64,000 nucleotides of DNA, from assembly GCA_040385525.1 (NCBI GenBank), contig JAZKHE010000004.1:35357-99356 (forward strand), written 5' to 3'. This document shows, piece by piece, positions 24,967-60,626 of this stretch. Both the position numbers and the translations under genes were made by a program. The notes under the pieces are model-generated. The model did no database searches. It had not been told where the DNA came from and saw only the letters and a list, made by a program, of their open reading frames with translations. This DNA is from Bacteroidota bacterium. GTDB lineage: Bacteria; Bacteroidota; Bacteroidia; UBA4408. Numbering within the stretch: the first letter of the stretch is position 1; each line of letters begins with the position of its first letter.

Positions 24967-24982
24967 GCGGTCCGGACGGGAC
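24967..24982. repeat. attR-like 16-bp direct repeat of the tRNA-Asp 3' end (GCGGTCCGGACGGGAC).
   Basis: Exact 16-mer match to 60611-60626, which is the 3' terminal 16 nt of tRNA-Asp (reverse complement). A GC-rich 16-mer in an AT-rich 64-kb window is very unlikely by chance. Confidence 0.7.
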
Positions 24983-25191
24983 ACCGCCAAAACCTCCAGA
25001 ACACTTGTATTTAGTAGTTTTTAATTTTTCAATTTTGCAAATTGTTAAACAATTGTGTTTTGATTAATAATATGACTTATTTTAATAAAAATTCGTTTTA
25101 TCATGCAAATCTATACTTTTTATTATAAAAACTCGCTATTCCGGTTAAAAACAGCGATTTATAAGACTTAAAGACCCTTTTGAATTTTCAA

Positions 25192-27264
25192 CTATGCTTT
25201 TATTGCATTTTCAAGCTCATTTATTTGGTTATTAATTACTGTTTCAAATTGAAAATAATCTTCTTTTTTAACAAACACATCATTTTTTACCCAAGCATCT
25301 GAAGCAAAATCACAAATCATTTTTTTAATCTCTTTTTCTTCAATTCTTGAAAAAGAAGTTAAGTGTTGTGCCATTTTAAGCAGCAATAATTTGTTGCGTT
25401 TTAAAATTGTTTCAGCCTCTTGTTCACATTCGTAAATTAAGGTCATTACTTCTTCACTATGTATTGATTTATGCACGATAGCTAAATCATCATGCGTATG
25501 TGAAAATCGGATAAATACAGGGTCATTACCCATCCCATATTCTTTTATAGCGCGATTAGCCATTTCACTTATTTTTTCAATATCACTAGAAACACCAGAC
25601 GAAGTTTGTTCTTCCCCAAAAATAATTTTTTCAGCCACATATCCTCCTAAACCAATTATTATTTCTTTTTTTAGAATTTCACGCGTGAGTGGTCCCTCTG
25701 GCATATTCACCATACAAAAACCTTCAGCAGTTGCTGAAACAGTTTTAGAAACAACTAAAGAAGGAATAATACGTAGTGTTAATGCAGCCAAAATAGCATG
25801 ACCTGATTCATGAACAGCTGTATGAGCTTGCAAATTTTTATTGTTAATTTTTCGGAGTTCGCCTACTTTAAGCATAGGCTTTTCAACATAAGTATTAATT
25901 GTATTATTTGCATGATCTTTAAAAACAAAAATGAAATTTTCATCTACATAATCCCAATTTACAGAATTTGTTTCTAGTTTTTTTTCAATAATTTCTAAAA
26001 CTATTTTACTTATACTTCCTTCAATTACATTTTTAACCGTTGTGAAAATTGGCCTTGTACCTTGAGCTGGATAAACCCCCTCGCTGTAAACTACATCAAC
26101 AACATTTTCGCTAAAATTAATTTCAAAATTGAAATATTCTTTTACATATATGTTTATTGCATTTAGTTTTTGGGTAATGATATCTCTAAAATTTTGATTG
26201 GTAAAAGAACGAAAGATGATATGATTATTTCCCAAACGGGCAATTTGTTCGTTTCGAAATCTTTCTTGAAGAGCTTTTTTTATATGCGCTACATTTATTT
26301 TTAGAGTTGCTTCATTCAATTCATCAGCACTAATATCTGGATTCATACTATGACTCATATAGTAAGCCTCATCTAAATTTCCTAAAACAAAAATAAGTCC
26401 TCTAGACAAATCCAATTGTTTAATAGCGGTTCTTTTGTTCATGCCTTCTATTAGCAAACGTTGAATGCCTTTTAAATCTGTATTTTCAATAATCTCCTTT
26501 AATTTGTTTCTAGTTATAGATAGATCATTATATAAATAGAAAACTCCATCAATAAAATCATTAGAAAGAAAATAATTGCTATTTACACTCTCTCCATTTC
26601 TATTAGCATTCTCAAAATAAAAATCGCTAAATGTATTTAAAAATTCACTTTCACTATTTATTACAACTCCATCTCTGATACCAACTCCTTTATCTTCGCA
26701 TTTAAGCAAATAAACCAGACAAATTTCTGCACGCACAACGTAGTAAGAATTATGATAAGGTATGTAATTCACTTTACCACTATCAAGTAAATCCCATATT
26801 ACTCTTAATTTATCTTTTCCTAATTCATTACCTTCTTTGTTTATCGTTCTCGCAAACTGAAATTCATCAAAACAAATTATACCCGGCTGCTCATGGAAAA
26901 ATTCTAGGTCATCAGTAAACATTCCTTTTATCCACGAAGCCGAATCTGATTCAAATTCACCCATATCCATTTGAACATATAAACGCTTGTAATCCAATAA
27001 TTCAACCATTTTGTTTACTAAAGCAGTTTTTCCAGATCCGGTTAAACCCCACATATTAATTACTGTTGGTCTTAGTTGAGCGTCAGGAAAAAGATACCAC
27101 GGTGTTATTAAATTAATTACTTCATCAATAATATTATTTAGTCCAATAAATTCTTTTTTCAAAGTTTTTTGTACTTCGTTTAATCTTTGTTTCTTTAAAA
27201 CTATATTATCGTATATATCGATTTTATTCATATTATTTTTTCTTTGTAAACTTTGATCCTTCAT
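25192..27264 (-). CDS. Cytoplasmic P-loop ATPase fused to an FtsH-like M41 zinc-metallopeptidase domain. No transmembrane segment.
   Basis: Walker A GLTGSGKT and Walker B ICFDEFQ in the N-terminal half. C-terminal HESGHAIL (HExxH) and the third-ligand region [40 protein letters not shown] match the FtsH protease domain. Its start overlaps the 3' end of prfH by 32 nt. Confidence 0.65.
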
Positions 27265-27862
27265 AAATTCTTTTAGGATTTCCGCGTTCGAGTAAGTTAT
27301 GATTATTCCACAGTTTATATTGCTCTTCCATTGCTTGATGTAATTGCCATTTAGTATACTCTTCTTGTAATTTTAATGCAGCAATTTTTTTATTCTGTAA
27401 TTGTGAACGGCTCTCATTTATAGTAATCTGTATTCCAGAGGAAATGTGTTTAGCTCTTACAGCCGTTTCCACTTTATTTACATTTTGACCTCCAGGGCCC
27501 GAAGAACGCATAGTTTGATATACAATATCCTTTTCATTCCATGGTGGGAGGTCTATTAAATTAATATTGTAAATTCCAATGAACCAGTTTTTTCGTTTAT
27601 GCAATTTTCTATATGGGCTTTGATTGATCCAGAGTAAAACACCTGTCCATGAATTTATAAAACTATCTACATTTTTACCTTTCAATTTAATAGATACAGA
27701 AGAATAAGTACCTTCTTCAATTCCTTTAGTTTGTTCAATTATTTCATACATCAATTTTAACTCATTTGCTTCTTTTAGCAATTCATTTAAAGCTAACGCA
27801 ACTGCCTTACAGCATTCTGAAGGGCCTTTTCCCGATGTTATTTGTATAATTTTTGTGTCCAT
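27233..27862 (-). CDS. prfH: Peptide chain release factor homolog PrfH (RF-H).
   Basis: 209 aa with GGQ motif ([16 protein letters not shown]). N-terminal ...[17 protein letters not shown] typical of PrfH. It lies immediately downstream of an rtcB, the classic rtcB-prfH pairing. Confidence 0.75.
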
Positions 27863-27904
27863 TTTTTTAAAATTAAGAGGCTGTTTAATTACAACCTCTT
27901 TTGT

Positions 27905-29308
27905 TTAACTTTTATTCATCCTTACTATTCTTGGCGTAAACGAGCCTTCAACATTAACGAGGCCGGATTGATTACTCATAACTGTTTCAATATCTTTATA
28001 AGCTAATGAAGATTCTTGGACACTACCACCAATTAATTTAACCTTGTGTTGATCAAGAGTTACGTTCATTTGTGATTTTGTTATTTTTTCACTTGCTTCT
28101 CTTCTCGACATTTTTCTTCCAGCTCCATGTGAAGCAGAGTTCAATGAACCTGAAGCTCCAACACCACTAACAATATAGCCTTTACTCGTCATACTACCCG
28201 GAATGATCCCCAATTCACCTTTAGCAGCAGGGGTAGCTCCTTTTCTGTGCACTATTAATTCTTGCCCATCGTGGATTTCTTTCCATGCAAAATTGTGATG
28301 GTTTTCAACTTTACAAATGGCTTTTAAACCCATAAAACGTTCTAGATTATTATGAATTACATCGTGGCAAGCTTTAGCATAGTCGCCTGCTAAATTCATC
28401 GATAACCAATATTCTTGGCCAGCTTCGTCATCCATACTCAACCATGCCATAGAACGCATTTCTTTTGGAAGTTTACATTTTTCCATTGCAATTTTTGTGT
28501 AAATACCTGCAATAGTAGCTCCCATTCCTCTAGACCCGCTGTGCGATAATAAGCCAATGTATTTCCCTGCAGCAATTCCTAAAGCGTTATTTTCATTTAT
28601 TTCCACATCACCAAATTCAACAAAATGATTTCCTGTACCCGAAGAACCTAGCTGATAACGAGCTTTTCCATGCAATCTTTTAAGCAAATCGGTTGCTTTA
28701 AATTCCCGTCGTTCCAAAACTTCATGATCTACATCAAAATCAAGCGTACCATCATTACCAAAATGAGTACATCTACGTAAAGCTTTTTGCAAATCATACT
28801 CTTTTTTAAGAATATAATTTTCTGGCAATTCATAGATACTTAAAGCCATTCTGCATCCAATATCTAAGCCAACTCCAAAAGGAATTACAGCGTTGTTAAC
28901 AGCAAGTGCAGCTCCAATTGGTAAACCATAACCATGGTGCGCATCAGGCATTAAAGCTCCTTTAACCGATACAGGTAAACGCATCGCTGCTTCCATTTGA
29001 AGAATAGCATTTTGACCAATAAGACGTTGACCGTAAATAGTAAAATCGCCAGTGTTTTTAAGCACATGAACTTCGTAACTGGTTTTAATTTTTGGCTTAC
29101 CACATAACTCATCTGATAAGGGTTTCAAAAATTCGTGTTCCAAATATTGTTCAGGATCTAAAAGAACGTTATTAATTATTTCTAATTTTTCATCTATCGA
29201 AAAGTGTTTATAGTTTTTCGACATAATATTTATAGCCACACTTTTGGCTATATCTGATGGGAAATCAAATTTTCTAAGATGCTTTCCCGTTATGAGATTT
29301 TTTCCCAT
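27905..29308 (-). CDS. rtcB: RtcB-family RNA 3'-phosphate ligase (paralog B, PrfH-associated).
   Basis: 467 aa. RtcB motifs GNHFVEFG, HSGSRGMG, SASHGAGRKMSR. Confidence 0.8.
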   Translation of the reverse strand: MGKNLITGKHLRKFDFPSDIAKSVAINIMSKNYKHFSIDEKLEIINNVLLDPEQYLEHEFLKPLSDELCGKPKIKTSYEVHVLKNTGDFTIYGQRLIGQNAILQMEAAMRLPVSVKGALMPDAHHGYGLPIGAALAVNNAVIPFGVGLDIGCRMALSIYELPENYILKKEYDLQKALRRCTHFGNDGTLDFDVDHEVLERREFKATDLLKRLHGKARYQLGSSGTGNHFVEFGDVEINENNALGIAAGKYIGLLSHSGSRGMGATIAGIYTKIAMEKCKLPKEMRSMAWLSMDDEAGQEYWLSMNLAGDYAKACHDVIHNNLERFMGLKAICKVENHHNFAWKEIHDGQELIVHRKGATPAAKGELGIIPGSMTSKGYIVSGVGASGSLNSASHGAGRKMSRREASEKITKSQMNVTLDQHKVKLIGGSVQESSLAYKDIETVMSNQSGLVNVEGSFTPRIVRMNKS

Positions 29309-29490
29309 GATATTTTTTAAATTTTATGGGCATGATTTTTCCTTTACAGTTTTTTTAATGCAAAGGATAAGTTCATAAAACGCATAGCATTTTTACCCTG
29401 TTTTTTTTTATAAAATGATTTTTTGGTTTCCGGATTTTTCTGTCTCCCCAGAATTTTATTTGTTTTTAGTTTATTTTGAAAAAATAAAAC

Positions 29491-29520
29491 AAATAAAAAA
29501 GCCCGGCATTAAACCGGGCT
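29491..29520 (-). terminator. Rho-independent terminator downstream of rtcB paralog A.
   Basis: Minus-strand reading: GCCCGGTTTAATGCCGGGC hairpin (6-bp GC-rich stem) followed by TTTTTTATTTG. Confidence 0.6.
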
Positions 29521-29909
29521 GAATATATTGATATTAGCAGCTTTTCGGCTTAAAACGTCGTATGTGAATTTGCTACTAACATAATTTCTTTTCTTTTTTT
29601 GGTTGGTGTTTTTTAATAAATCTGTCACAAATGTAAATCAAAAAATTGATTTGTCAAGTACAAAATATTTTTTTTTGCGTTAAAATTATTTCATTTATTT
29701 TTTTTAACCTTCAGAAGCATTGTAAAAAAAGGTGTTATAGAGGTTAATTAAAATGATTATAAATTTACCAAAGTCAAAAAAATTAAACAAAGTTTTTGTT
29801 GAGCTATCAGTTATAAAACAGAATAGGGTTTCAACCTAGATCCTTCAATTTGTCAATAGACAGACGACGATCAACCGAAGTGTCTCTATTCATGTCACTT
29901 TTGAATACT

Positions 29910-31331
29910 TTAATCTTCTCTGCTGCCATCATCTGCCATACGAACAATTTTAGGAGTAAATTTTGCAACTACATCAATTAGGTCTTTTTGTGAAGCCATA
30001 ACAGTTTCTATATTTTTATAAGCCATCGGTGCTTCATCTAAACCAGCACCAATTAATGTTACACCATGATCCTTTAGTACTTTTCTCATTTCGTCTTTAG
30101 AAATATTTTTAATTGCTTGTGTTCTACTCATTTGTCGACCTGCACCGTGTGATGCTGAATTAATTGCATTTGCTTCACCTTTACCTCTTACTAAAAAACC
30201 AGGGGCTGTCATTGATCCAGGTATAATACCCATTACATCTTTAGAAGCAGGAGTAGCACCTTTTCTATGAACAATTACTTCTTCTCCGTTCCACATCTCC
30301 TTCCAAGCAAAATTATGATGGTTCTCTACTTTAGCCAATACTTCTGCACCAATAGCTTTAGCTAAACGATTGTGAATTATTTCATGACAAGCTGATGCAT
30401 AATCACCAGCTAAATTCATTGCCATCCAATACTCTTGTCCTTCAGCAGAATTCATATCTAAGTAAGCTAAATTTGCTGCTTCTTTAGGAAGTTTACAAAT
30501 TTCTTTCGCTACTTTGGTATAATATCCTGCTATTGTTGCACCAAATCCTCTTGATCCCGAATGTGTTAACAACGCTAAGTATTTTCCTTTTTTGATATTT
30601 AATTTTTCATCATCATTTTCAAATTCAATAATTCCAAATTCTACAAAGTGATTTCCGCCACCTGAAGAACCTAATTGTTCAACAGCTTTTTGTTGAAGAT
30701 TTTTTACAAACGGTGTCATATTAAACTCTGTTCTATCTAATATTGAATGCTCAGCTCTATATTTACCATGCCATCCAGCGCCAGCGCCAAATTTAGTCCA
30801 GGCAATTAACTCTCTTTTATATTTGCTTTCATTCTCTATAAAATGATTCTCATTAATATCATAGATGGACAAAGCCATTCTACAACCAATATCAACGCCT
30901 ACACCATAAGGAATAATAGCGTTTTTTGTAGCCAATACTCCACCAATTGGTAAACCATACCCTTGATGAGCATCAGGCATTAAAGCACCAGCAACTGTTA
31001 CGGGCAATTTCATGGCTATTTCCATTTGATTAATTGCGCCTTGCTCAATGTTTTCTGAACCAAAAATAGAATAAAACATTCCTTGCTCTTTTAATGCAAC
31101 AGTAGCATCTTCATTTGGTTTTTCAATTAATTTTTGAGCAATAGCTTCAAGAACTTCGTCGTCTAAAAAGTTCTCTGGATATTGAACTACCTTAGTTAAA
31201 ATTGCGATTACTTCCTCTTTCTCTAATTCAGCATAATTTTGCTCAACTACTTTAATGGCTATTCCAATTACTTTTCCTTCAGGATAACCTAAAGCTTTTA
31301 ATTCAGCTCCTGATACGTTAACTATTTTCAT
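29910..31331 (-). CDS. rtcB: RtcB-family RNA ligase (paralog A).
   Basis: 473 aa. GGGNHFVEFG, HSGSRGFG, SASHGAGRQMSR. Roughly 50-55% identical to paralog B by eye. Monocistronic: an operator-like palindrome lies upstream and a terminator downstream. Confidence 0.8.
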   Translation of the reverse strand: MKIVNVSGAELKALGYPEGKVIGIAIKVVEQNYAELEKEEVIAILTKVVQYPENFLDDEVLEAIAQKLIEKPNEDATVALKEQGMFYSIFGSENIEQGAINQMEIAMKLPVTVAGALMPDAHQGYGLPIGGVLATKNAIIPYGVGVDIGCRMALSIYDINENHFIENESKYKRELIAWTKFGAGAGWHGKYRAEHSILDRTEFNMTPFVKNLQQKAVEQLGSSGGGNHFVEFGIIEFENDDEKLNIKKGKYLALLTHSGSRGFGATIAGYYTKVAKEICKLPKEAANLAYLDMNSAEGQEYWMAMNLAGDYASACHEIIHNRLAKAIGAEVLAKVENHHNFAWKEMWNGEEVIVHRKGATPASKDVMGIIPGSMTAPGFLVRGKGEANAINSASHGAGRQMSRTQAIKNISKDEMRKVLKDHGVTLIGAGLDEAPMAYKNIETVMASQKDLIDVVAKFTPKIVRMADDGSRED

Positions 31332-31418
31332 CTTGTTTTTTTTAATTATGATACAAAATAAATACTAAACTACGCAGTCAAATTGCGCAGTTGATTTTTT
31401 TTCATTTTTTTTTAAAAT

Positions 31419-31440
31419 CCCTCGCCCAAATTGACGAGGG
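31419..31440 (-). terminator. Possible terminator hairpin after the SPFH gene.
   Basis: CCCTCG-cccaaattga-CGAGGG hairpin 10 nt after the stop. Only a short U-run (AUUUUA) follows on the minus strand. Confidence 0.3.
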
Positions 31441-31450
31441 ATGCTACAAT

Positions 31451-32551
31451 TTATTTACCTGGAACAAATATCTGTTTTAACTGATCCACTAAATGAGTTC
31501 CTCCTGACAATGAAATATTATTAATTTTCTCTGCAATCTTCTCTACATATTCCATTTCTTTCAATTTAAACAACATAGTGTTTTCTTCCATCAATTTAGC
31601 AGTATTCAATAAACTTCTAGTTGAAGCAGTTTCTTCTCTTCTCATGATGGTATTAGCTTGAGCCTTTTTCTCCGCAACTAATACTTGATTCATAATATCT
31701 TTCATATCTCCTGGCAAAATTATATCTCTGATACCACTTCCTTTCAATACTACTCCCAAAGATTCTACTTTTTCAGACATCGACTCCATAACATAAGCTG
31801 AAATAGATTCTTTTTTTTCTAACAACTCATCTAATGTTAATGAACCTATGAACTCTCTCAAAGCTAATTGCAACAGTACATATAGTTGTTTATCATACTC
31901 CTTGTTATTTACTAACGCCTTAACAATATCTTTTATATTGTATTGAGCATAGAAATTAACTCTTAGTGCTGCTTTGTCTTTTGTCAAAATCTCTTGTCCA
32001 GCAATTTCCATTTGCATAGTTCTTAAATCAGCTCTTGAAATCACAATAGAAGTGCTATTCTTCCAAAAGTTGTAAGTACCTGACTCCATGATTTTATGAA
32101 ATTTACCATCAACATACATCACTGCTTTTTCATGTGCTTCAACTACAAAGTTCCTCACAAATGGGGCGATTTCTTTTTTAGTCAATAAAGATTTATCGAT
32201 GTCATTATCAATTTCAATTTGATTTAAATCAATGATATTAAAATTGTAATTTATCAAGCCTTTCCAAAAAATGTATCTACCAGCATTTAATACAGTAGTA
32301 AATAATCCATTTTCGTATTGTAAAGCAATTTCATTATTTTTTACTTCAACAATCAAAGTTGCATTTAGAAAATCTTCATTTTTTAATAAGATATTTATAT
32401 TAACTGGCGCTATTAATGGTTTTGACATATCACAGTCAAATACAACCATAGTTGGCCACAACCAATATGTACCTTCGTTTAAAACTTTTACCAAATTATC
32501 ATTTTTAAACACTAAGCCTTTTTTCCAGGCATTTATTTTTACTCTTTTCAT
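31451..32551 (-). CDS. SPFH/band-7 (stomatin/HflKC-like) domain protein, apparently without a TM anchor.
   Basis: SPFH core ...TKDKAALRVNFYAQYNIKD...LDELLEKKESISAYV...GVVLKGSGIRDIILPGDMKDIMNQVLVAEKKAQANTIMRREETA. N-terminal triple repeat of a GTYxFW hairpin motif. Confidence 0.6.
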   Translation of the reverse strand: MKRVKINAWKKGLVFKNDNLVKVLNEGTYWLWPTMVVFDCDMSKPLIAPVNINILLKNEDFLNATLIVEVKNNEIALQYENGLFTTVLNAGRYIFWKGLINYNFNIIDLNQIEIDNDIDKSLLTKKEIAPFVRNFVVEAHEKAVMYVDGKFHKIMESGTYNFWKNSTSIVISRADLRTMQMEIAGQEILTKDKAALRVNFYAQYNIKDIVKALVNNKEYDKQLYVLLQLALREFIGSLTLDELLEKKESISAYVMESMSEKVESLGVVLKGSGIRDIILPGDMKDIMNQVLVAEKKAQANTIMRREETASTRSLLNTAKLMEENTMLFKLKEMEYVEKIAEKINNISLSGGTHLVDQLKQIFVPGK

Positions 32552-34417: not shown

Positions 34418-34491
34418 TTTTAAAATTTATTCTTGCATTATTAAAATTAATATTTAACTTTGCAGTACAAAGTACTTTTAACTAATTCAAA

Positions 34492-35426: not shown

Positions 35427-35445
35427 ATTTTTTTACACTTAAACT

Positions 35446-43926: not shown

Positions 43927-43931
43927 TTAAA

Positions 43932-50915: not shown

Positions 50916-50923
50916 GAAATTTT

Positions 50924-52448: not shown

Positions 52449-54085
52449 TATTTGGTATTATTTAAAACACTTTTTGCAGCACAAATACCTCTATAAAAAG
52501 CCTGCTCAAATATTGAAATTCCGCTTACATCAGAATTTGCAAAGTAAATATTATCAAATCCATTTTCTAGAATTTGTCGAGATTTAGAGCTTCTAAAACC
52601 AACTTTTGGGCTTATCATTCCATGTCCCCAAACTACTATTTGTATTTCTTCTATTAAGTTTTCTATTTTTAAATGTGCGTTTTTTAAGTCTTCAATAATA
52701 AATGATTTCCAATAATTTTCGTCTTTTTCTCTAATTTTATTTCTTTCAATTTTAGATGATTCCTCCGAAAAATTATAATAGTAGGTAATAACGGTTCTTT
52801 TGTCATCACTATTAAAATTTTGATGGCAAGCATTTACATAACCAAGAGATTTTGAGCCATAAATCACATTGTCCCAAGATAGTTCTTGAGAGCCATTTAA
52901 CTCTAACTTATTATTGATTGTAATACTCGCTACTATCCATGGATAGTAGTTAAAGTCATCAAAATTTAAATTGGTTTTAAAATCAAAAATATTTTTGTTT
53001 ACAAATTGTGGTGTTGCTAAAATCAAATTTTCACACTCGTATTCAATACTTTCATTTTTAACTAAATCATACACATAACATTTAGTTTTGTTTTCAATTT
53101 TTTTAACCTTATAAACTATATGTTGTGTTTTAATTTTGTCGTTTAATTCAGCAGACAATTTTTTTACAAGAAAATTATTTCCCTCGGGCCAAGTTAATAA
53201 CTCATGATTTGCAGCATTAGCAGCTTTTCCGTTACGAGATGAAAAATAATGAAAAACAGCCCATGCAGAAGTATTTTTTATATTAGTTCCAAAATCATCT
53301 TTACAACAATAATCTAAATACCATAAAATAAAATTCGATTTAAAATTATTCTGTTTTAAATAATCAAATATTGAAATTTTATCTAATTGCAAATATTTTT
53401 CATCGTTACTGCTTAACTCTAAGGGAATAGTAAATGCTGGCTTATTATCAGTACCTATTGCATTTTTAAATTCTTCTGTAATTTTTAAAAATCGAAGTAA
53501 CTCTTCTTTTTCAATCTCATTCAATCCATTATCTGGAGGAATTCCATCTTGCCAAATACCTTTAAAATAAATACGTTCTTGTGGCTCAAAACACAAGTAA
53601 TATTCATTGTATATTGGTAATCCATCAGAATTAAAGCCAGTTATAATTTTACTTTCTACTAAAAAATCAATTAGTTCTTTAAAATTAACAGTTGGTATTG
53701 GCAAATAATGTGCACCCATCGGAAATTCAGATACATTATTTTTACCCGCTTTAGAATTGCCTCCAATAACTGAATCTAATTCCAAAATTAAAAAATCAGT
53801 TTTATTATTTTTAAGTAGATGTCTTGCAGCACTCAACCCTCCTATTCCAGACCCAACAATTAGTGTATTAATTTTTTTACTTGTAATTGGTTCAGGAAAT
53901 TTATTTTGCCTAATTAAATGGCCTACTTTAGGATCAGAACCAATAAATGCTAATTTAATTTGACGCTTATCAAACAATGAACACGAGCTTAAATAAGGAA
54001 CTGCTAATAGCATTGAAGATAGTTTTAAAAACTTTCTTCTGTTTACAGCATTCAAACTATTGAACTTTTCCCCACTCATCTTCAA
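52448..54085 (-). CDS. Tat-exported FAD/NAD(P)-binding amine-oxidase-like oxidoreductase.
   Basis: Twin-arginine signal NRRKFLKLSSMLLAVPYLSSC. Rossmann dinucleotide motif LIVGSGIGGLSAARHL. 545 aa. Confidence 0.6.
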   Translation of the reverse strand: MKMSGEKFNSLNAVNRRKFLKLSSMLLAVPYLSSCSLFDKRQIKLAFIGSDPKVGHLIRQNKFPEPITSKKINTLIVGSGIGGLSAARHLLKNNKTDFLILELDSVIGGNSKAGKNNVSEFPMGAHYLPIPTVNFKELIDFLVESKIITGFNSDGLPIYNEYYLCFEPQERIYFKGIWQDGIPPDNGLNEIEKEELLRFLKITEEFKNAIGTDNKPAFTIPLELSSNDEKYLQLDKISIFDYLKQNNFKSNFILWYLDYCCKDDFGTNIKNTSAWAVFHYFSSRNGKAANAANHELLTWPEGNNFLVKKLSAELNDKIKTQHIVYKVKKIENKTKCYVYDLVKNESIEYECENLILATPQFVNKNIFDFKTNLNFDDFNYYPWIVASITINNKLELNGSQELSWDNVIYGSKSLGYVNACHQNFNSDDKRTVITYYYNFSEESSKIERNKIREKDENYWKSFIIEDLKNAHLKIENLIEEIQIVVWGHGMISPKVGFRSSKSRQILENGFDNIYFANSDVSGISIFEQAFYRGICAAKSVLNNTK

Positions 54086-55571
54086 AATAATGTATCAATA
54101 TTTGATTATTTAGCTTATTTATTTCAGTTTGTACATAGCCAATATCTTTGGGAAAATTTATCATTTCTGCAAACTGTTTTTCTTCATAAAATTTTAAATC
54201 TTTAGGCAAAAAAAAGTTTTCTTTATCTAATTCATTATAGGCCAAAACATATCCCCAATCGCCAAATGATGGTAAGTATAGATGATATGGAATAGTTTGA
54301 AAACCAAGTGATGCAATTGTATTGTTTATACACCAGTATGATTTTCTTGCAAAAAAAGGTGAAGTACTCTGAACAACAAATAAACCACCTTGGTTTAGTA
54401 CTTTTTTAATTTCTTTATAAAACATTGTAGAATACAATTTTCCAACAGAAAAATTTGATGGATCGGGAAAATCTATAATAATAAAATCAAATTTTTCTTT
54501 TGTTTCTTTTATCCATTTAAAGGCATCAGTATTAATTACTTGTAATTTACTACTTGATAAAGAGTTATTGTTTAGTTTTTTTAAAGGTTCGGATGTATTG
54601 AATAAATGTGTTATAGAGTTATCCAAATCAATTAATTTAATTGATTTTACACTAGGGTATTTTAAAACTTCTCTTAATGCTAATCCATCGCCACCACCAA
54701 GTATTAATATATTTTCTGGGTTTTTAATTTTTGACAATCCGGGATGTACCAATGCTTCGTGATACCTGTACTCATCATTCGAACTAAATTGTAAATTGTT
54801 ATTTAAATATAATTTTGTTACTCCTTTTTCGCTAGTTAAAATTATTCTTTGGTAAGGCGAAGATTTGCTGAAAATAATATTTTCATTAAACGAAATTGTT
54901 TCTGCCATACTTTGAATTTTATTTGAAAATACAAAGCCTAACAACAAGATTAATGTTACTATTAAAGCCTGTGTTTTAAGGAATTTTACGTACTTAATTT
55001 CTTCTTCAAATCTAAAACACAAAATAATTGAAACTACAACATTTAGTATTCCAAAAAAGTAAGACGTTTTTAATAATCCCATGTATGGAATCATGAAAAG
55101 TGGAAACAAAATGGAAGCAAATAGTGCACCTATATAATCAAATGTAAATACCTTAGAAACTAAATCTCCAAATTCAATTTTATCTTTTAAAATTTTCATT
55201 AGAATAGGTATTTCCAAGCCAACTAAGGTTCCAGTTAGCATAATTAAAAAGTAAAGAATAATTTCAAAACCAGCAACTTGTTCAAATGCAAAAAATAAAA
55301 TAGTTGAACTAACTCCTCCAACTATACCTACCAAAATTTCGATTTGAATAAACCAAACTAGTAAATTCTTTTTAAAATACTTTGAAATGAACGACCCTAT
55401 ACCCATTGAAAAAAGGTAAAGACCAATAATAATAGAAAATTGTGTAACTGAGTCTCCTAATAGATAACTAGCTAAAGTACCTGCAATTAATTCGTAAATT
55501 AATCCACAAGTAGCAATAATAAAAACAGAGATTAGTAATAAAAAACTATCGTTTTTATTAGATTTTTCCAT
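54057..55571 (-). CDS. Membrane-anchored spermidine-synthase-family aminopropyltransferase-like protein (N-terminal ~8-TM domain + C-terminal SpeE-like domain).
   Basis: C-terminal ILILGGGDGLALREVLKYPSVKSIKLIDLD, the SpeE GGGDGG motif region. N-terminal half is hydrophobic. Confidence 0.65.
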   Translation of the reverse strand: MEKSNKNDSFLLLISVFIIATCGLIYELIAGTLASYLLGDSVTQFSIIIGLYLFSMGIGSFISKYFKKNLLVWFIQIEILVGIVGGVSSTILFFAFEQVAGFEIILYFLIMLTGTLVGLEIPILMKILKDKIEFGDLVSKVFTFDYIGALFASILFPLFMIPYMGLLKTSYFFGILNVVVSIILCFRFEEEIKYVKFLKTQALIVTLILLLGFVFSNKIQSMAETISFNENIIFSKSSPYQRIILTSEKGVTKLYLNNNLQFSSNDEYRYHEALVHPGLSKIKNPENILILGGGDGLALREVLKYPSVKSIKLIDLDNSITHLFNTSEPLKKLNNNSLSSSKLQVINTDAFKWIKETKEKFDFIIIDFPDPSNFSVGKLYSTMFYKEIKKVLNQGGLFVVQSTSPFFARKSYWCINNTIASLGFQTIPYHLYLPSFGDWGYVLAYNELDKENFFLPKDLKFYEEKQFAEMINFPKDIGYVQTEINKLNNQILIHYFEDEWGKVQ

Positions 55572-55786
55572 TAACCTCTTATCGCTGAAGAAATAATAAT
55601 TCCAATTGCTAAAATAAATGCAGCAGCAATAATAGCTAGTGCCTTATTTTGTTTTTCAAAAATTTCTTTTCTAATATTTTCAGGTGTTATTACTTCAATT
55701 ATCCAAAAAGCGAACAATAGAATCAAAATTCCTAAAATAGAGTATACAACGGCAGTGCCAATGTATTGTAAATGTAGTGCTTCCAT
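55571..55786 (-). CDS. DUF350-family small membrane protein.
   Basis: 71 aa, two TM helices (MEALHLQYIGTAVVYSILGILILLFAFWIIE...). DUF350 is commonly found next to SpeE-like genes. Confidence 0.5.
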   Translation of the reverse strand: MEALHLQYIGTAVVYSILGILILLFAFWIIEVITPENIRKEIFEKQNKALAIIAAAFILAIGIIISSAIRG

Positions 55787-55804
55787 ATTAAATTTATTTA
55801 TTAA

Positions 55805-56008
55805 TTATTTATGATAATGCGTATTTGTTCTTTCTCTAGAATGGCTAGATTCATTAAAACTTAAAAATCTCCATCCAACAATCATTGAATAGATATATAT
55901 TAAAATTAATATCAAACAAAATATTAAATAATATTTAAGTGCTTTTATATCTTCTAAATCAATCTTCATAAGGAGAATAGTTACTATTATACCATCTATT
56001 TTCTTCAA
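55805..56008 (-). CDS. Possible small membrane protein (uncertain; overlaps the upstream gene by 50 nt).
   Basis: 67-aa ORF with one hydrophobic helix. May be a spurious ORF. Confidence 0.2.
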   Translation of the reverse strand: MKKIDGIIVTILLMKIDLEDIKALKYYLIFCLILILIYIYSMIVGWRFLSFNESSHSRERTNTHYHK

Positions 56009-57221
56009 ATTTTCTTTGCTTATAAAAATAATACGCTGGGAAAATTGCCATTAGTATTAATAAAATTAAACCATTAGAGGAAATAAAAACATCTCTTGTT
56101 AATGTTATTCCTATTGACATGTTGTTTAAAGAAGTTGGTTTTTCTGGACGAATTATTAAATAATACGTTCCTTCTGGTACTGATGACGCTACTTTTGACG
56201 ACCAATTTGTTCCTTCACTCCAACTTTCTCCATCAGTATAACCGTGGTAATATTCTGCTTCTAATTCAAAATCATAAACATCTCCTGTTTTTTCATTAAC
56301 TAGCGTTGCTCCTGCATAAATCCATGAATTAAATACGGATGTTACCATCGTTATTTCAACATTTTTGGTACCATGTTTTAACTCAAAAGAATTAGTATAG
56401 TAATCTTTACCTGTAGTAGAATCATTTACATTTATGTAGTTTTTAAAGACAACTTCCTCTTTAGCTAAACCATCAAAAACAACTTGCATAGTACCCCAAA
56501 TTAATGCCAATAAAATTAAAACTTGCTTAAAAAATTTAGTTTTAAATTTTGCAACATAGGGTTGTATTTGTCCAACACCAATTCTATCTGGAACATCAAC
56601 AAGATTGAATCCGTTTTTAATTTGATTTGGAGCATAATATTCGCCTTTTAACCAAACTAGATTATCTTCAGTTTTTTCGCTAGTAATTATGTATGGAGGC
56701 AATATAAATTCTTCAATTTGTGGTTTTTCATCAGGAGAAAAATTAAATAAAAATTCTCCAACAGCTCCATCAACTTTAGATCTATATCTCGAATACAATT
56801 CAAACCGTTCATTATTTAAATAAGCTGATCTACCTTCAACATTTGGTATCTCAGTAATTTCTTTTAACAGCATCCAATGCCCGTTATACATTGTTAAATA
56901 TGCTAAACCATAAATTGGATTAAACAATGTATACTCATGCCAAGAATAATCTGTTCCACTTTCCTTTTTAAGTACAAAAGATAATGTAATATATTTTATC
57001 TTATCAATTACCCCAATAGTACCTATATCAATTATTGGTTTTTCTTTTAGTGGCTTTAGTTTCTTAAAAGATTTAATAAACCATCCATCGTAATAATTGT
57101 ATACACAAGAGCATTTAGGACAAATTACATTGTAACTTGATGAACCTAAATAAGTTTCAATAACAGCATTACATTCGCTGCAATTCTTAATTTCTTTTTT
57201 TATTTCAGAAAAAGTACTCAA
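55959..57221 (-). CDS. Zinc-ribbon + DUF4178-like protein with two TM segments.
   Basis: N-terminal CSEC...CPKC zinc ribbon. TM helices near residue 230 and at the C-terminus. The domain order parallels the next gene. Confidence 0.5.
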   Translation of the reverse strand: MSTFSEIKKEIKNCSECNAVIETYLGSSSYNVICPKCSCVYNYYDGWFIKSFKKLKPLKEKPIIDIGTIGVIDKIKYITLSFVLKKESGTDYSWHEYTLFNPIYGLAYLTMYNGHWMLLKEITEIPNVEGRSAYLNNERFELYSRYRSKVDGAVGEFLFNFSPDEKPQIEEFILPPYIITSEKTEDNLVWLKGEYYAPNQIKNGFNLVDVPDRIGVGQIQPYVAKFKTKFFKQVLILLALIWGTMQVVFDGLAKEEVVFKNYINVNDSTTGKDYYTNSFELKHGTKNVEITMVTSVFNSWIYAGATLVNEKTGDVYDFELEAEYYHGYTDGESWSEGTNWSSKVASSVPEGTYYLIIRPEKPTSLNNMSIGITLTRDVFISSNGLILLILMAIFPAYYFYKQRKFEENRWYNSNYSPYED

Positions 57222-57222
57222 G

Positions 57223-57873
57223 TTATAACCAATTATTATTATTGATATTTTCTAAATTTAATTCATTAATATTTACTTTCTTCCCCAAATTTATTTCAAC
57301 GTTTTCTTTATCAAAAATAGTAATAGTAGCTATCTCATCACCTAATTCAGAAAGCATATCGAAAATAAAAAATTGAGTAGGGTTTACGCTGTTTAATTCA
57401 ATCTGACCTTCAAATAAAAATTCAATTTGTTTTGAAATACAGTTTATAACAAAATTTTTATCATTAAATTTTATTTTGCTTTCTGCTTTTTTAAATTTTA
57501 CATTCTCAGTTATAAATTTCTTATTATCATTATCAAAAATATAATAACTACCCTGTACTTCAACAAGCCATTTCTTAGTCTCATCAGAAAATAGAATCAT
57601 CCATTCATTTGAAATATAATAAGAATTAACGCTTCTAACATAACCAATAATTTCAAATGATTTGTTTTGGTACCTGCCTAAATCACCAATTTTTAAAAGT
57701 GAAAAGAAATTTAAACTATTATATTTAATACCTAAATCATTAATCTTTTCAGACGAAAAAACTTCAAAAGAATTGTTACACTTACTACATCTAAAAGCAA
57801 ATGGAAAATCAATTTTTTGGTAAATAATTGATTTACATGATGGACAATCTATTTTTGAAGTAACAGATACCAT
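57223..57873 (-). CDS. Zinc-ribbon + DUF4178-like protein.
   Basis: N-terminal CPSC...CSKC zinc ribbon. 216 aa. Separated by 1 nt from the downstream paralog. Confidence 0.5.
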   Translation of the reverse strand: MVSVTSKIDCPSCKSIIYQKIDFPFAFRCSKCNNSFEVFSSEKINDLGIKYNSLNFFSLLKIGDLGRYQNKSFEIIGYVRSVNSYYISNEWMILFSDETKKWLVEVQGSYYIFDNDNKKFITENVKFKKAESKIKFNDKNFVINCISKQIEFLFEGQIELNSVNPTQFFIFDMLSELGDEIATITIFDKENVEINLGKKVNINELNLENINNNNWL

Positions 57874-57876
57874 AAA

Positions 57877-58236
57877 TTAACGATTTAATTTTACTGTATT
57901 TATTTCTACTCCACCTAGAAGTTTTATTAATTCATTATGAATTGATTCAACAATTATGTCATTTTCTTTAAGGTAATTGCTTAGAAAAACATCAAATGTA
58001 ACTTTATTAAACTCTGGCCAAGTGTGAATTGATATATGCGATTCCGTTAAACAAATTACAGCTGTATAACCACTATTTTCAAACTCATGATATATTTCTC
58101 CAACATTAACCAATCCATTAGCTGATATAGCATTATTAAAAAAACGCTTAACAATTGAAGAGTCCTTCAATATTTCAGGGTTGCTAACACTAAAATCAGA
58201 AATAATATGGAGGCCTTTTTTATACAAATTATTCAC
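57877..58236 (-). CDS. speH: S-adenosylmethionine decarboxylase proenzyme, small pyruvoyl-dependent SpeH/SpeD class.
   Basis: 119 aa with the autoprocessing/active-site block LTESHISIHTWPE. Confidence 0.7.
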   Translation of the reverse strand: MNNLYKKGLHIISDFSVSNPEILKDSSIVKRFFNNAISANGLVNVGEIYHEFENSGYTAVICLTESHISIHTWPEFNKVTFDVFLSNYLKENDIIVESIHNELIKLLGGVEINTVKLNR

Positions 58237-58745: not shown

Positions 58746-59297
58746 ATGGAAACAACTGTAAATCAGAGAATTAAAGACTATATTAAAATTAAAGGAATAA
58801 AATACACGGAAATTGCGGTAGCTGTAGGTTTAAGCAACCCAAATTTACATCGCTTATTATCATCTGACGATATAAAGGTAAGTATGCTTGTAAAGTTCTG
58901 TAAGGCTCTTAATGTAGATATGGATTACTTCATAGAAGGAAAGAGTAACCTACTTGCAGAGAAAAAATTTGCTTTAACGAAAAGCAAAAACAAACTAGAA
59001 AAATTAAATCAATTTTTAATAACCTTAAATAAAACATTAAATCAATTACCAGAAAAACAACAAAAACAAATCACTAGTATTTTTAACGAGTTTGATTTAG
59101 AAACTTTAAATATGGAAATTAAAAAAATTAATACCGTAAACAATCATCTCAAATCAATTGGTTTATCAGAATTACCTGTTCCAGATAAATCGAATAATAA
59201 TCAAGATTTAATTCAAAAAACACTTTTAAATCAAAGTGATCTAACCCAATTGATATGGTTAATTGAACATGCTTTACAACAAAATCAAGAAGAATAA
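58746..59297 (+). CDS. XRE/cI-like HTH repressor.
   Basis: N-terminal HTH (IKGIKYTEIAVAVGLSNPNLHRLLS). 183 aa. Divergent from the integrase. Confidence 0.6.
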   Translation: METTVNQRIKDYIKIKGIKYTEIAVAVGLSNPNLHRLLSSDDIKVSMLVKFCKALNVDMDYFIEGKSNLLAEKKFALTKSKNKLEKLNQFLITLNKTLNQLPEKQQKQITSIFNEFDLETLNMEIKKINTVNNHLKSIGLSELPVPDKSNNNQDLIQKTLLNQSDLTQLIWLIEHALQQNQEE

Positions 59298-59304
59298 ATT
59301 TACA

Positions 59305-60492
59305 TTAGCTAGCTTTTTTTACCTGACTCCTATTATTCAACTTATCCATTTCATTAAACAAAACAGAGTCAATTATTTTAGCATAAATTTGGGTTACTTT
59401 CAAATCTTTATGACCTAGTATTTTACTTACAATGTGAATTGGAATACCTTTAGCAATTGCAATCACTGCAAAAGTATGACGACTACAGTGAAATGTAATT
59501 TGCTTTTTAACGCCAGCTTTTTCAATAATTTTTTCAAGCTGCCTATTTACAACTTGATTAGTTGCCACCTTAAACACTTTACTATCACTTTTATTAGATA
59601 AATCTATTAATTCTTTAGCAGAATCAATTAAAGGAATTCTTACTTGCTCTTTTGTTTTGTGCATTATTATTACAATTAAGTTATCTTTTATATCACTATA
59701 GCGCAAATTCTTTATATCTGTGTAGCGCAATCCAGTGTAACAACAAAATAAAAAATACTTTAAAACATATTTTTGAGCTTGAGAAATATCAGAATGCAAC
59801 AAATTTTCCAAATCAATTAACTCTTTTTCGTTGCAATAATCTCTGTAAGTTGATTCTGTTTTTAACTTGTAGTTTTCAAAAACTTCATTTTGAGTTAAAC
59901 CTTGTGCTTTAGCTCTATTCACAAAATTCCTAATAAAGCGCATAGATTTATGTATGGTGTTTGTTTTATTACCTAATTTATCCCGCATATGTGCAGCATA
60001 CGCATTTAAAAAAGGAATCGTAATGTCATTAAACGATAAATTAGGGCTAAACTTTTTTAATTTGCTAGAATCACATTTTATTGTGTGAGATGAACTTACT
60101 GAATTATGCTTAGTTGTTTTATTTGCTTCAAGTTCATTATCAACAAAATCAAAGAAATTAATTACTTTTTTTTGTTTAAACTCATTTTCAAAATCATAAA
60201 ACGTTAATGATTTACGACTTACTGCATAAGAAAAAAGTATTTCCTCAGCTTTGTTAGTTGCAGACTTTATGAGTAGATTTTTCTCATCAGTTGTTTCACA
60301 ATTTTTGGACTTAATGTGAAACATTTTTTCATCCCAATCTTTTTCCTGACAAGAAACATTTAATGAATAAAGTTTTATTTGTCTGTTGATTGTTAATCTC
60401 AGGTAAATTGGATGTTCACCATTTTTCTTTTTAAAATCCTTTCTAAGGACTGGTTTTACTGTTGTTGCCATTTGTTTTACATTGTAAAACAA
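59305..60492 (-). CDS. int: Tyrosine-type site-specific integrase (Bacteroidetes CTn/phage-integrase family).
   Basis: C-terminal catalytic region HCSRHTFAVIAIAKG...ILGHKDLKVTQIYAKI (R..H..R..Y). Possible start at the internal MATTVKPV (60471). Adjacent to the tRNA-Asp 3' end. Confidence 0.85.
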   Translation of the reverse strand: MFYNVKQMATTVKPVLRKDFKKKNGEHPIYLRLTINRQIKLYSLNVSCQEKDWDEKMFHIKSKNCETTDEKNLLIKSATNKAEEILFSYAVSRKSLTFYDFENEFKQKKVINFFDFVDNELEANKTTKHNSVSSSHTIKCDSSKLKKFSPNLSFNDITIPFLNAYAAHMRDKLGNKTNTIHKSMRFIRNFVNRAKAQGLTQNEVFENYKLKTESTYRDYCNEKELIDLENLLHSDISQAQKYVLKYFLFCCYTGLRYTDIKNLRYSDIKDNLIVIIMHKTKEQVRIPLIDSAKELIDLSNKSDSKVFKVATNQVVNRQLEKIIEKAGVKKQITFHCSRHTFAVIAIAKGIPIHIVSKILGHKDLKVTQIYAKIIDSVLFNEMDKLNNRSQVKKAS

Positions 60493-60610
60493 TTGTTAAA
60501 CATTTTAACCAAAATTGCTAAAATTAGAGATTCTCTATTTTTAGAAAACGCCGCCAAACGCCTATAAAACAAAGAAACCTAAAATTACATTTCTGTAATT
60601 TTAGGTTCTG

Positions 60611-60626
60611 AGCGGTCCGGACGGGA
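60611..60626. repeat. attL core: 16-bp direct repeat overlapping the tRNA-Asp 3' end.
   Basis: GCGGTCCGGACGGGAC, identical to 24967-24982. Confidence 0.7.

What the first reader, a model, noticed from the sequence alone, without database searches (positions are those of the whole stretch)
24967..60626. tRNA-Asp-integrated ~35.7-kb genomic island delimited by a 16-bp direct repeat
Seen: GCGGTCCGGACGGGAC occurs exactly twice, at 60611-60626 (the 3' end of tRNA-Asp) and at 24967-24982. A tyrosine integrase, an Xis-like HTH and a cI-like repressor sit immediately inside the tRNA-proximal end. A bidirectional terminator hairpin sits just outside the distal repeat. With ~33% GC the expected number of chance 16-mer repeats of this composition in 64 kb is roughly 0.01 or less (rough estimate). 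All four unusual gene modules in this window lie inside these bounds.
Basis: partly seen in the sequence, partly recalled or inferred. Interest (0 to 1): 0.6.

Follow-up and report, generated by a model that had tools for sequence, protein, structure and literature searches.

The report
tRNA-Asp integrated 35.6-kb genomic island
A 35.6-kb piece of foreign DNA carrying RNA-repair, stress and anti-phage genes has inserted into the end of a tRNA-Asp gene of an uncultured Bacteroidota bacterium; a close relative still has the empty site, so this is a real but ordinary kind of mobile island.

Summary
The second copy is the last 16 nt of an intact tRNA-Asp(GTC).

An intact tyrosine integrase starts 140 nt inside the tRNA-proximal repeat, followed by a cI-like repressor and an HTH_17 excisionase-like gene.

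- **Empty site.** A metagenome contig from a relative about 91% identical in DNA joins the left flank and its terminator hairpin directly to the tRNA-Asp 3' end.
- **Absence from the relative.** Six of seven island proteins looked up have no partner at 90% identity or more, and the integrase's nearest relative is 49% identical.
- **Integrase family.** Its relatives sit 121-280 nt downstream of various tRNA genes. Three of them bound 7-11 kb elements with 18-25 bp repeats of the tRNA end.

The island has no phage, conjugation or replication genes. Its cargo:
- a Band-7/RtcB/RtcB/PrfH/FtsH-like RNA-repair operon with a YrlA-like tRNA-mimic RNA;
- an XrtN/VIT block;
- a type I restriction system with Menshen embedded;
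- a polyamine-type module.

Circularising the island restores an 11-gene order found contiguous in another genome. It is a new member of a known kind, of moderate interest.

The parts
24939..24966 (-). Chromosomal terminator-like hairpin just outside the island. It is the original terminator downstream of tRNA-Asp and is also present in the empty-site relative.
24967..24982 (+). Distal 16-bp att core (the copy far from the tRNA): GCGGTCCGGACGGGAC.
24983..25191 (.). Distal arm of the island. It holds the palindromic motif AATTGTTAAACAATT (25040-25054) and a terminator-like hairpin (25133-25157, minus strand) that closes the RNA-repair operon.
   Evidence: A role as an accessory protein site is inferred.
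25192..32551 (-). RNA/ribosome-repair operon: Band-7/SPFH (31451-32551), RtcB 473 aa (29910-31331), RtcB 467 aa (27905-29308), PrfH (27233-27862) and an AAA+/M41 FtsH-like protease (25192-27264).
   Evidence: Pfam. NCBIfam: PrfH scores 234.8 bits against a cutoff of 166.65. The triad RtcB467-PrfH-FtsH-like is conserved in L168, L169, L170 and L173.
32845..33017 (-). Tandem tRNA-like / YrlA-like non-coding RNA modules upstream of the Band-7 gene.
   Evidence: Rfam: YrlA 46.2 bits, E=5.8e-9, below the gathering score of 69; tRNA model 35.3 bits, above its gathering score of 29. Fold.
33404..39831 (+). WYL/WCX regulator (33404-34417), a 212-aa unknown, an HTH_34 protein, a 171-aa unknown, the XrtN-system VIT protein (35984-38509) and exosortase N (38509-39831).
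   Evidence: Pfam. NCBIfam: TIGR04477 988 bits and TIGR04476 375 bits, both above cutoff.
39832..40887 (.). Gene-free stretch with iteron-like tandem repeats at 40096-40184.
   Evidence: Function unknown.
40888..51127 (-). Type I restriction-modification operon with Menshen embedded: HTH_3 (50924-51127), hsdM (48567-50915), hsdS (47239-48567), NsnA/DUF262 (45817-47214), NsnB ATPase (44663-45817), NsnC (43932-44666) and hsdR (40888-43926).
   Evidence: Pfam. PADLOC: NsnA 6e-113, NsnB 3e-112, NsnC 6e-44.
51369..58236 (-). Polyamine-type module: AdoMet decarboxylase (57877-58236), DUF4178 x2 (57223-57873 and 55959-57221), a 67-aa ORF, DUF350 (55571-55786), TM-fused spermine/spermidine synthase (54057-55571), amine oxidase (52448-54085) and a 359-aa unknown (51369-52448).
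   Evidence: Pfam. The genes are orthologous and colinear with L168. The neighbourhood is described in PMC11237479.
58374..58631 (-). HTH_17 protein, a candidate excisionase or AlpA-like regulator.
   Evidence: Pfam; PHROG excisionase family; 33% identical to the HTH_17 gene of the related element in L165.
58746..59297 (+). cI-like HTH repressor, divergent from the HTH_17 gene.
59305..60471 (-). Tyrosine integrase of 388 aa with an ATG start at 60471. Domains: Arm-DNA-bind_5, Phage_int_SAM_5 and the catalytic domain. R249, K272, H328, R331, H354 and Y363 are all present.
   Evidence: (identical to P0121, 388 aa).
60472..60611 (.). tRNA-proximal arm of the island. It holds TTGT(T/A)AAACAA motifs (60483-60503) and an island-borne terminator-like hairpin (60575-60608, minus strand) directly downstream of tRNA-Asp.
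60612..60627 (+). Proximal 16-bp att core, which is the 3' end of tRNA-Asp.
60612..60686 (-). Intact tRNA-Asp(GTC), the integration target. tRNA-Glu lies upstream at 60706-60778.

Best explanation
Window 24967-60627 is an integrative genomic island. It entered the chromosome of an uncultured Bacteroidota bacterium by site-specific recombination between a 16-bp core on a circular form of the element (attP) and the identical 16 bp at the 3' end of tRNA-Asp (attB). The excised circle would be 35,645 bp.

The reaction is catalysed by the island's own tyrosine integrase, encoded 140 nt inside the tRNA-proximal junction. Its arm-binding, core-binding and catalytic domains are all present.

Integration duplicates the core. 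The tRNA stays intact because the island supplies the same 16 nt and its own terminator hairpin. The original terminator is left behind the distal core.

The neighbouring HTH_17 protein probably acts as the excision or directionality factor, and the divergent cI-like repressor probably controls it. Both roles are inferred.

The element has no phage, conjugation, relaxase or replication genes, so it cannot move between cells on its own and is best called a cargo-rich genomic island. Its int/repressor/HTH_17 backbone comes from a family of small (7-11 kb) tRNA-integrating Bacteroidota elements.

Shown: the repeat, the intact tRNA, the integrase and its catalytic residues, the empty site in a relative, and the family habit of sitting next to tRNAs. 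Inferred: the circular intermediate, current ability to excise, the roles of the HTH proteins, and the motifs in the arms.
For: - **Repeat.** Exact 16-bp repeat, two copies only, never matched in shuffles.
- **Target.** The proximal copy completes an intact tRNA-Asp.
- **Integrase.** It has the three expected domains, and R249, K272, H328-x-x-R331, H354 and Y363 lie in invariant columns of a 25-member alignment.
- **Empty site.** L084, from a strain 90.7% identical over 8.75 kb of the left flank, reads hairpin + core + TCGAACCC. Its final 31 nt span flank-specific and tRNA-specific bases. On my recollection that Logan assembles with k=31 (not checked here), that junction must exist in reads. 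L082, from the same sample, carries the right flank at 94.6% identity up to tRNA-Glu.
- **Absence from the relative.** Six of seven island proteins looked up are singletons at 90% identity. Two of the three flank proteins looked up have partners on the relative's contigs, and the third, MFS, is encoded identically on L084. The next-nearest integrase among 5.8 billion clusters is 49% identical.
- **Family habit.** In 14 of the 36 best metagenome loci examined, and in both closer relatives L165 and L167, a tRNA gene lies 121-280 nt upstream of the integrase on the same strand. The tRNAs are Ala, Gln, Asp, Asn, Ser, Arg, Cys and Met. In L108, L147 and L165 the tRNA 3' end is repeated (18, 25 and 18 bp) 7.1-10.6 kb downstream.
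- **Shared backbone.** L165 has the same int / divergent HTH repressor / HTH_17 arrangement, with homologous proteins.
- **Gene order across the junction.** Joining the two island ends gives, on the minus strand, WYL | RNA | RtcB473, RtcB467, PrfH, FtsH-like, [att, int, cI, HTH_17], AdoMetDC, DUF4178, DUF350, spermine synthase, amine oxidase, 359-aa protein. L168 has the same 11 orthologues (27-89% identity) in that order as one contiguous cluster without the att/int insert.
Against: - No excised circle or repaired attB has been observed for this strain.
- The empty site rests on one short-read contig that ends only 8 nt past the core. L084 and L082 do not overlap, so the complete empty locus was never seen in one piece.
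- Composition gives little support. GC is 0.295 in the island against 0.327 and 0.306 in the flanks, GC3 ranges overlap, and the tetranucleotide distance is only moderately raised.
- The colinearity argument rests on a single genome. Three other contexts of the RtcB-PrfH-FtsH-like triad lack the polyamine genes.
- At 35.6 kb the island is 3-5 times larger than the three related elements that could be measured, and it lacks their primase-like gene. It may therefore be immobilised.
Confidence: 0.9

Rival explanations
1. The island is a degraded prophage or phage satellite. The int/cI/Xis-like module is what remains of a temperate phage or phage-parasitic element that lost its structural or replication genes and accumulated cargo.
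For: The int, divergent cI-like repressor and HTH_17 layout resembles a lysogeny switch. The integrase is 27-30% identical to integrases of temperate Bacteroides, Flavobacterium and Cellulophaga phages. The related 10.6-kb element in L165 carries a DUF5906 primase-like gene, as many satellites do.
Against: None of the 30 island proteins hits a capsid, terminase, portal, tail, lysis, primase or packaging family in Pfam, and 9 island proteins, including most of those without a Pfam match, gave none in PHROGs. The attL sequence was not found in IMG/VR viral contigs. The cargo consists of cellular-type operons.
Confidence: 0.12
2. The island is an integrative mobilisable element of the Bacteroides NBU1/NBU2 type. 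It excises and is transferred through a conjugative element present elsewhere in the cell, using an oriT that cannot be recognised by sequence.
For: It has a Bacteroidota-type integrase with an arm-binding domain, integration at a tRNA 3' end with a short identity block, and a primase-like gene in relative L165. The comparison with NBU elements is from my own knowledge and was not tested here.
Against: No relaxase, Mob, primase or coupling-protein domain was found in any island ORF of 60 aa or more. An oriT cannot be tested with these tools.
Confidence: 0.15
3. The region is not a mobile element. The distal 16-mer is a relic of a local tRNA duplication or a chance match, and the region is ancestral chromosome that the relative has deleted.
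For: Composition and GC3 are close to those of the flanks. Only one relative is available for comparison.
Against: A deletion that removes exactly the DNA between two 16-bp repeats and leaves one copy gives the same product as integrase-mediated excision, so it amounts to the same thing. An intact integrase of a tRNA-targeting family sits at the expected distance and in the expected orientation. Three related elements show the same repeat architecture. The chance expectation for the repeat is about 3e-7 (my estimate; 0 of 100 shuffles).
Confidence: 0.03

Closest known systems
tRNA-gene-integrated genomic islands made by tyrosine integrases (the general class surveyed by Williams 2002, NAR; cited from my own knowledge)
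   Same: An integrase gene lies next to the tRNA. A short direct repeat equals the tRNA 3' end and keeps the tRNA intact. The element is present in one strain and absent in a related one. The cargo is accessory genes.
   Different: The host is a deep-branching uncultured Bacteroidota lineage: apart from the ~95%-identical strain, the nearest homologue of a flanking TPR protein is 47% identical. The island also brings its own terminator hairpin for the tRNA. Excision has not been demonstrated.
Bacteroides NBU1/NBU2 mobilisable elements (IntN1/IntN2, integrating at the 3' ends of tRNA-Leu and tRNA-Ser; from my own knowledge, not tested here)
   Same: Both use a Bacteroidota-type integrase with an N-terminal arm-binding domain and a 13-16-bp identity at a tRNA 3' end. 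The small relatives, such as the 10.6-kb element in L165 with a primase-like gene, resemble NBU in size and content.
   Different: No mob, oriT or primase genes are detectable in this island. It is 3-4 times larger. Sequence similarity to IntN1 and IntN2 was not measured.
Defence islands, and type I R-M operons with embedded defence genes (Menshen/NsnABC of Millman et al. 2022, as modelled in PADLOC)
   Same: hsdM-hsdS-[NsnA-NsnB-NsnC]-hsdR forms one co-directional block and is carried on a mobile element.
   Different: Defence genes make up only about 10 kb of the 35.6 kb. The rest is RNA-repair, XrtN/VIT and polyamine-type genes.
The Band-7/RtcB RNA-repair system with a tRNA-like RNA (predicted by Burroughs & Aravind 2016, as summarised in bioRxiv 10.1101/312249) and the RtcB2-PrfH ribosome-repair pair (PMC9304027, PMC9223846)
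   Same: A Band-7 protein, RtcB and PrfH sit in one operon, preceded by a YrlA-like/tRNA-like RNA.
   Different: This operon has two RtcB paralogues and a conserved AAA+/M41 FtsH-like protease as its last gene. The RNA is a tandem of tRNA-like modules that scores below the YrlA gathering threshold. There is no Ro60 here, although L168 has one. The whole module is carried on an integrative island.

Membership tests
tRNA-integrated genomic island (tyrosine-integrase type) | A tyrosine recombinase with its catalytic residues intact, encoded inside the element next to one junction. | tested here: met
   R249, K272, H328, R331, H354 and Y363 are present. The gene starts 140 nt from the tRNA-proximal core.
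tRNA-integrated genomic island (tyrosine-integrase type) | Direct repeats at both ends, identical to the 3' part of the target tRNA, which remains intact. | tested here: met
tRNA-integrated genomic island (tyrosine-integrase type) | An unoccupied target site in a related genome (presence/absence polymorphism with precise ends). | tested here: met
   L084 reads flank + hairpin + core + tRNA sequence; the integrase and six of seven island proteins looked up have no close relatives in the collection. The evidence comes from one relative, and the contig ends 8 nt past the core.
tRNA-integrated genomic island (tyrosine-integrase type) | Excision to a circular form carrying attP, with regeneration of attB. 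| not testable with these tools
   This needs read-level search or PCR. Indirect support: the gene order across the joined ends matches the contiguous cluster in L168.
Prophage | Virion structural, packaging and lysis genes. | tested here: not met
   Pfam on 30 island proteins gave no such family, and PHROGs on 9 island proteins, including most without a Pfam match, gave none either.
Integrative conjugative or mobilisable element | A relaxase, with or without type IV secretion or coupling proteins, plus an oriT. | tested here: not met
   No relaxase, Mob or T4SS domain was found. The oriT itself cannot be tested.
Defence island | Two or more recognised anti-phage systems clustered together. 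| tested here: met
   PADLOC: type I R-M (REase_I, Specificity_I, MTase_I) plus Menshen NsnA/B/C.
YrlA (Rfam RF02553) | Score at or above the family gathering threshold of 69 bits. | tested here: not met
   46.2 bits (E=5.8e-9) and 30.7 bits, covering only the tRNA-like part of the model. It works like a tRNA mimic, but membership of the family is not established.

The most novel reading that the evidence does not exclude
The island may be more than a random collection of cargo. It could be the mobile form of one large RNA-damage response supercluster under a WYL regulator: a tRNA-mimic RNA, Band-7, two RtcB ligases, PrfH, an AAA+/M41 protease, then AdoMet decarboxylase, DUF4178, DUF350, an aminopropyltransferase, an amine oxidase and a 359-aa protein. 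The att/int module would sit in the middle of that cluster, so the two halves are contiguous only in the excised circle. This would link aminopropyl/polyamine chemistry functionally to ribosome and tRNA repair, and would make the whole response horizontally transferable as one unit.
Probability: 0.2. Interest if true: 0.6.

Novelty: new member of a known kind. Interest (0 to 1): 0.38.

Why it matters
The finding gives clean boundaries for every cargo module in this window, so those modules can be treated as horizontally acquired accessory functions and not as core biology of the lineage. It also documents a family of tRNA-targeting integrative elements in poorly sampled Bacteroidota. The family includes small 7-11 kb relatives and this cargo-rich 35.6-kb member.

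An RNA/ribosome-repair cassette (Band-7, two RtcB, PrfH, an FtsH-like protease and a tRNA-mimic RNA) travels here on a mobile element together with restriction and Menshen defence. That fits the view that RNA repair is part of the inter-microbial and phage conflict toolkit. The colinearity across the att junction with a contiguous cluster in another genome suggests a testable link between the RNA-repair and polyamine-type modules.

Tried and rejected
- **Genome scan with the flanking MFS transporter.** It returned 80 loci at 66-79% identity from many Bacteroidota families. The 60 loci scanned for tRNAs had none next to the gene.
- **Exact-protein look-ups.** The 133-aa flank ORF and the TTG-start version of the integrase were not found. 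The integrase is on record with its ATG start.
- **Right-flank contigs L081 and L082.** Both end inside tRNA-Glu, so they cannot show the site by themselves.
- **The next-nearest TPR homologue.** Its context (47% identity, L083) has no tRNA next to it.
- **Search for the attL junction in IMG/VR viral contigs.** Zero hits.
- **Composition.** GC, GC3 and tetranucleotide profiles do not clearly separate the island from the flanks, so I do not use them as evidence.
- **Internal att-like sites that would indicate tandem elements.** There are none with up to 4 mismatches. The tRNA-like hit at 32.9 kb is part of a YrlA-like RNA and not an att remnant.
- **Prophage, ICE/IME and satellite readings.** No defining genes were found.

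Full report
**Observation.** GCGGTCCGGACGGGAC occurs exactly twice in the 64-kb window, both times on the + strand, at 24967-24982 and 60612-60627. No further copy exists with up to 4 mismatches on either strand, and none of 100 dinucleotide-preserving shuffles produced a match. The bases on either side of the two copies differ, so the identity is exactly 16 bp.

ARAGORN and Rfam both call an intact tRNA-Asp(GTC) at 60612-60686 on the minus strand, with tRNA-Glu just upstream at 60706-60778. Read on the tRNA strand, the core is GTCCCGTCCGGACCGC. It covers the last two T-loop bases, the 3' T-stem strand, the 3' acceptor strand, the discriminator and one more base. The island including both repeats is 35,661 bp. 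The DNA between the repeats is 35,629 bp, and an excised circle would be 35,645 bp.

**The junctions.** On the minus strand, which is the strand of the tRNAs, a terminator-like hairpin follows each core directly. One lies outside the island at 24966..24939 and one lies inside it at 60608..60575. The simplest reading is that the outer hairpin was the original terminator of the tRNA operon and that the island supplies a replacement.

Both island arms carry a palindromic TTGT(T/A)AAACAA motif. The 12-mer AATTGTTAAACA occurs in the whole window only at 25040 and 60491. These are candidate sites for the arm-binding domain or the HTH proteins, which is inference only.

**The recombination module.** The first gene inside the tRNA-proximal junction is a 388-aa tyrosine integrase (59305-60471, minus strand). 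It has Arm-DNA-bind_5, Phage_int_SAM_5 and Phage_integrase domains. It is identical to a protein annotated on a 426-kb contig of a 'Bacteroidota bacterium' MAG. In an alignment with 24 relatives, R249, K272, H328, R331, H354 and Y363 are invariant.

Next come a divergent cI-like HTH protein (58746-59297) and an HTH_17 protein (58374-58631) that matches a PHROG excisionase family.

**The empty site.** The lineage is poorly sampled. A flanking TPR protein has one 95%-identical relative and then nothing above 47%. That relative comes from Logan sample SRR22388271.

- Its contig L084 is 90.7% identical to window 15583-24335. It lacks a 572-bp stretch holding a 133-aa ORF, and then matches 24908-24982, which is the hairpin and the core.
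- Its last bases read ...GAGAAGCTTTT GCGGTCCGGACGGGAC TCGAACCC. The eight bases after the core are those of tRNA-Asp (window 60628-60635), not those of the island (ACCGCCAA at 24983-24990).
- The final 31 nt contain both flank-specific and tRNA-specific bases. If Logan assembles with k=31, as I recall but did not check, that junction must exist in reads.
- Contig L082 from the same sample carries the right flank at 94.6% identity and stops inside tRNA-Glu.
- Of seven island proteins looked up, six are singletons at 90% identity. Two of the three flank proteins looked up (Zn-ribbon and trypsin-like) have partners on the relative's contigs, and the third, MFS, is encoded identically on L084.
- The nearest other integrase in the 5.8-billion-cluster collection is 49% identical.

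Its weakness is that it rests on one relative and on a contig that ends 8 nt past the core.

**The integrase family.** A profile of 25 relatives retrieved metagenome loci, of which I examined the 36 best. In 14 of them a tRNA gene lies 143-280 nt upstream of the integrase on the same strand. Most of the others begin less than 300 nt upstream of the gene, as expected if assemblies break in tRNA genes.

The two closer relatives examined (47% and 46% identity) lie 145 nt from tRNA-Cys and 121 nt from tRNA-Met. The window's spacing is 140 nt. The target tRNAs vary: Ala, Gln, Asp, Asn, Ser, Arg, Cys and Met.

Where enough downstream sequence was held, the tRNA 3' end is repeated: 18 bp at 7.8 kb (L108), 25 bp at 7.1 kb (L147) and 18 bp at 10.6 kb (L165). 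L165 has the same backbone of integrase, divergent HTH repressor and HTH_17, with 47%, 28% and 33% identity respectively, plus a DUF5906 primase-like gene. The window's island therefore uses the backbone of a family of small tRNA-integrating elements. It is several times larger and has no detectable replication gene.

**What the island is not.** None of its 30 ORFs of 60 aa or more hits a phage structural, packaging or lysis family, a relaxase, a type IV secretion protein or a primase. The integrase is only 27-30% identical to integrases of temperate Bacteroidota phages. The attL sequence is absent from IMG/VR. There is no internal att-like site. I therefore file it as a genomic island, not as a prophage, ICE, IME or satellite. 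An IME-like or satellite-like past remains possible.

**Cargo.**
1. **25192-33017, minus strand: RNA repair.** A tandem tRNA-like/YrlA-like RNA comes first (YrlA 46.2 bits, below the gathering score; tRNA model 35.3 bits, above it). It is followed by Band-7/SPFH, RtcB (473 aa), RtcB (467 aa), PrfH (above the NCBIfam cutoff) and an AAA+/M41 FtsH-like protein. Band-7 + RtcB + a tRNA-like RNA is a system predicted by Burroughs and Aravind, as summarised in bioRxiv 10.1101/312249. RtcB2-PrfH repairs colicin-E3-cut ribosomes (PMC9304027, PMC9223846). The triad RtcB467-PrfH-FtsH-like is conserved in all four independent contexts examined.
2. **33404-39831, plus strand.** A WYL/WCX regulator, small regulators, the XrtN-system VIT protein and exosortase N, the last two above NCBIfam cutoffs.
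3. **40888-51127, minus strand.** A type I R-M operon with Menshen NsnA/B/C between hsdS and hsdR.
4. **51369-58236, minus strand.** AdoMet decarboxylase, two DUF4178 proteins, DUF350, a TM-fused spermine-synthase-like protein, an amine oxidase and a 359-aa unknown. This neighbourhood is described in PMC11237479.

**Gene order across the junction.** In locus L168, from a different Bacteroidota metagenome scaffold, 11 orthologues of island genes form one contiguous cluster. The order is WYL (86.5% identity, divergent), Ro60/TROVE, YrlA-like RNAs and tRNAs, RtcB473 (88.6%), two RlaP genes, RtcB467 (80.7%), PrfH (60%), FtsH-like (70%), two small ORFs, AdoMetDC (42%), DUF4178 (27%), DUF350 (51%), spermine synthase (59%), amine oxidase (38.5%) and the 359-aa protein's homologue (47%).

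In the window the first half of this cluster ends at the distal junction and the second half begins just after the int module at the proximal junction, both on the minus strand. Joining the island ends restores the L168 order, with only the terminator, att core, integrase, repressor and HTH_17 gene in between.

This supports a circular ancestor or intermediate independently of the repeat. The support comes from one genome only. The three other contexts of the triad are followed by other genes, or by an NAD/KptA/NADAR block.

**Composition.** The island is slightly more AT-rich than the flanks (GC 0.295 against 0.327 and 0.306), and its modules alternate between about 0.27 and about 0.32. GC3 ranges overlap those of the flanks, and the tetranucleotide distance is only moderately raised. 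I do not count this as evidence either way.

**Verdict.** The mechanism is classical tyrosine-integrase recombination at a tRNA 3' end. Whether the island can still excise is not known. It is a new member of a known kind. The interest lies in the cargo and in the way the att/int module splits a conserved RNA-repair/polyamine cluster, not in the island architecture itself.

Noticed in passing
window 32845-33017 (minus strand): Tandem tRNA-like modules (T arm, closed stem, D arm, repeated, then an anticodon-like arm) lie upstream of the Band-7/RtcB operon. Rfam YrlA scores 46.2 and 30.7 bits, below the gathering score. The tRNA model scores 35.3 bits, above its gathering score. ARAGORN does not call a tRNA here.
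   Followed up: partly
window 25192-32551 and 51369-58236; locus L168 1-19155: The RNA-repair operon and the polyamine-type module sit at opposite ends of the island. In L168 they form one contiguous 11-orthologue cluster, so they may be one functional system. L168 has Ro60/TROVE where the window has Band-7.
   Followed up: partly
window 25192-27264 (minus strand); L168, L169, L170, L173: An AAA+/M41 FtsH-like protein follows RtcB467-PrfH in every context examined (58-72% identity). The family is large, with 1721 proteins at E<=1e-20. I did not find this triad described in the papers I read.
   Followed up: partly
window 39832-40887: A 1.06-kb gene-free stretch between the convergent XrtN and hsdR genes holds iteron-like repeats: TTTTGCCAAC x4.4 at 40096-40139 and a 21-mer x2.6 at 40130-40184.
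   Followed up: no
window 24336-24907: A 572-bp stretch just outside the island, holding a 133-aa lipoprotein-like ORF (24395-24796), is absent from the related contig L084. It is a separate indel next to the att site.
   Followed up: partly
window 34453-34484 and 35439-35470: A 32-nt direct repeat (84% identity) with an internal palindrome lies just upstream of each of two small genes in the WYL/HTH_34/XrtN block. These are probably operator sites.
   Followed up: no
L168 3211-3806; L173 18772-21621: Arrays of tRNA genes sit inside or beside the RtcB clusters of other Bacteroidota, next to WYL regulators 76-87% identical to the window's. L168 has 3-4 tRNA genes plus YrlA-like RNAs, and L173 has about 10 tRNA genes.
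   Followed up: no
L170/L171 2-1246: A VIT-domain homologue (34% identity to the window's XrtN-system VIT protein) lies beside the RtcB cluster in another genome, so VIT and the RNA-repair genes may be linked more than once.
   Followed up: no
window 29910-31331 (minus strand): The 473-aa RtcB belongs to a 90%-identity cluster of 50 sequences from many Bacteroidota assemblies, whereas the other six island proteins looked up are singletons.
   Followed up: no
window 23124-24335 (plus strand): The flanking TCR/Tet-family MFS transporter is 66-79% identical to proteins of very different Bacteroidota families (Rufibacter, Adhaeribacter, Chitinophagaceae, Flavobacterium). The neighbouring TPR protein, by contrast, has no relative above 47% outside its own species.
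   Followed up: no
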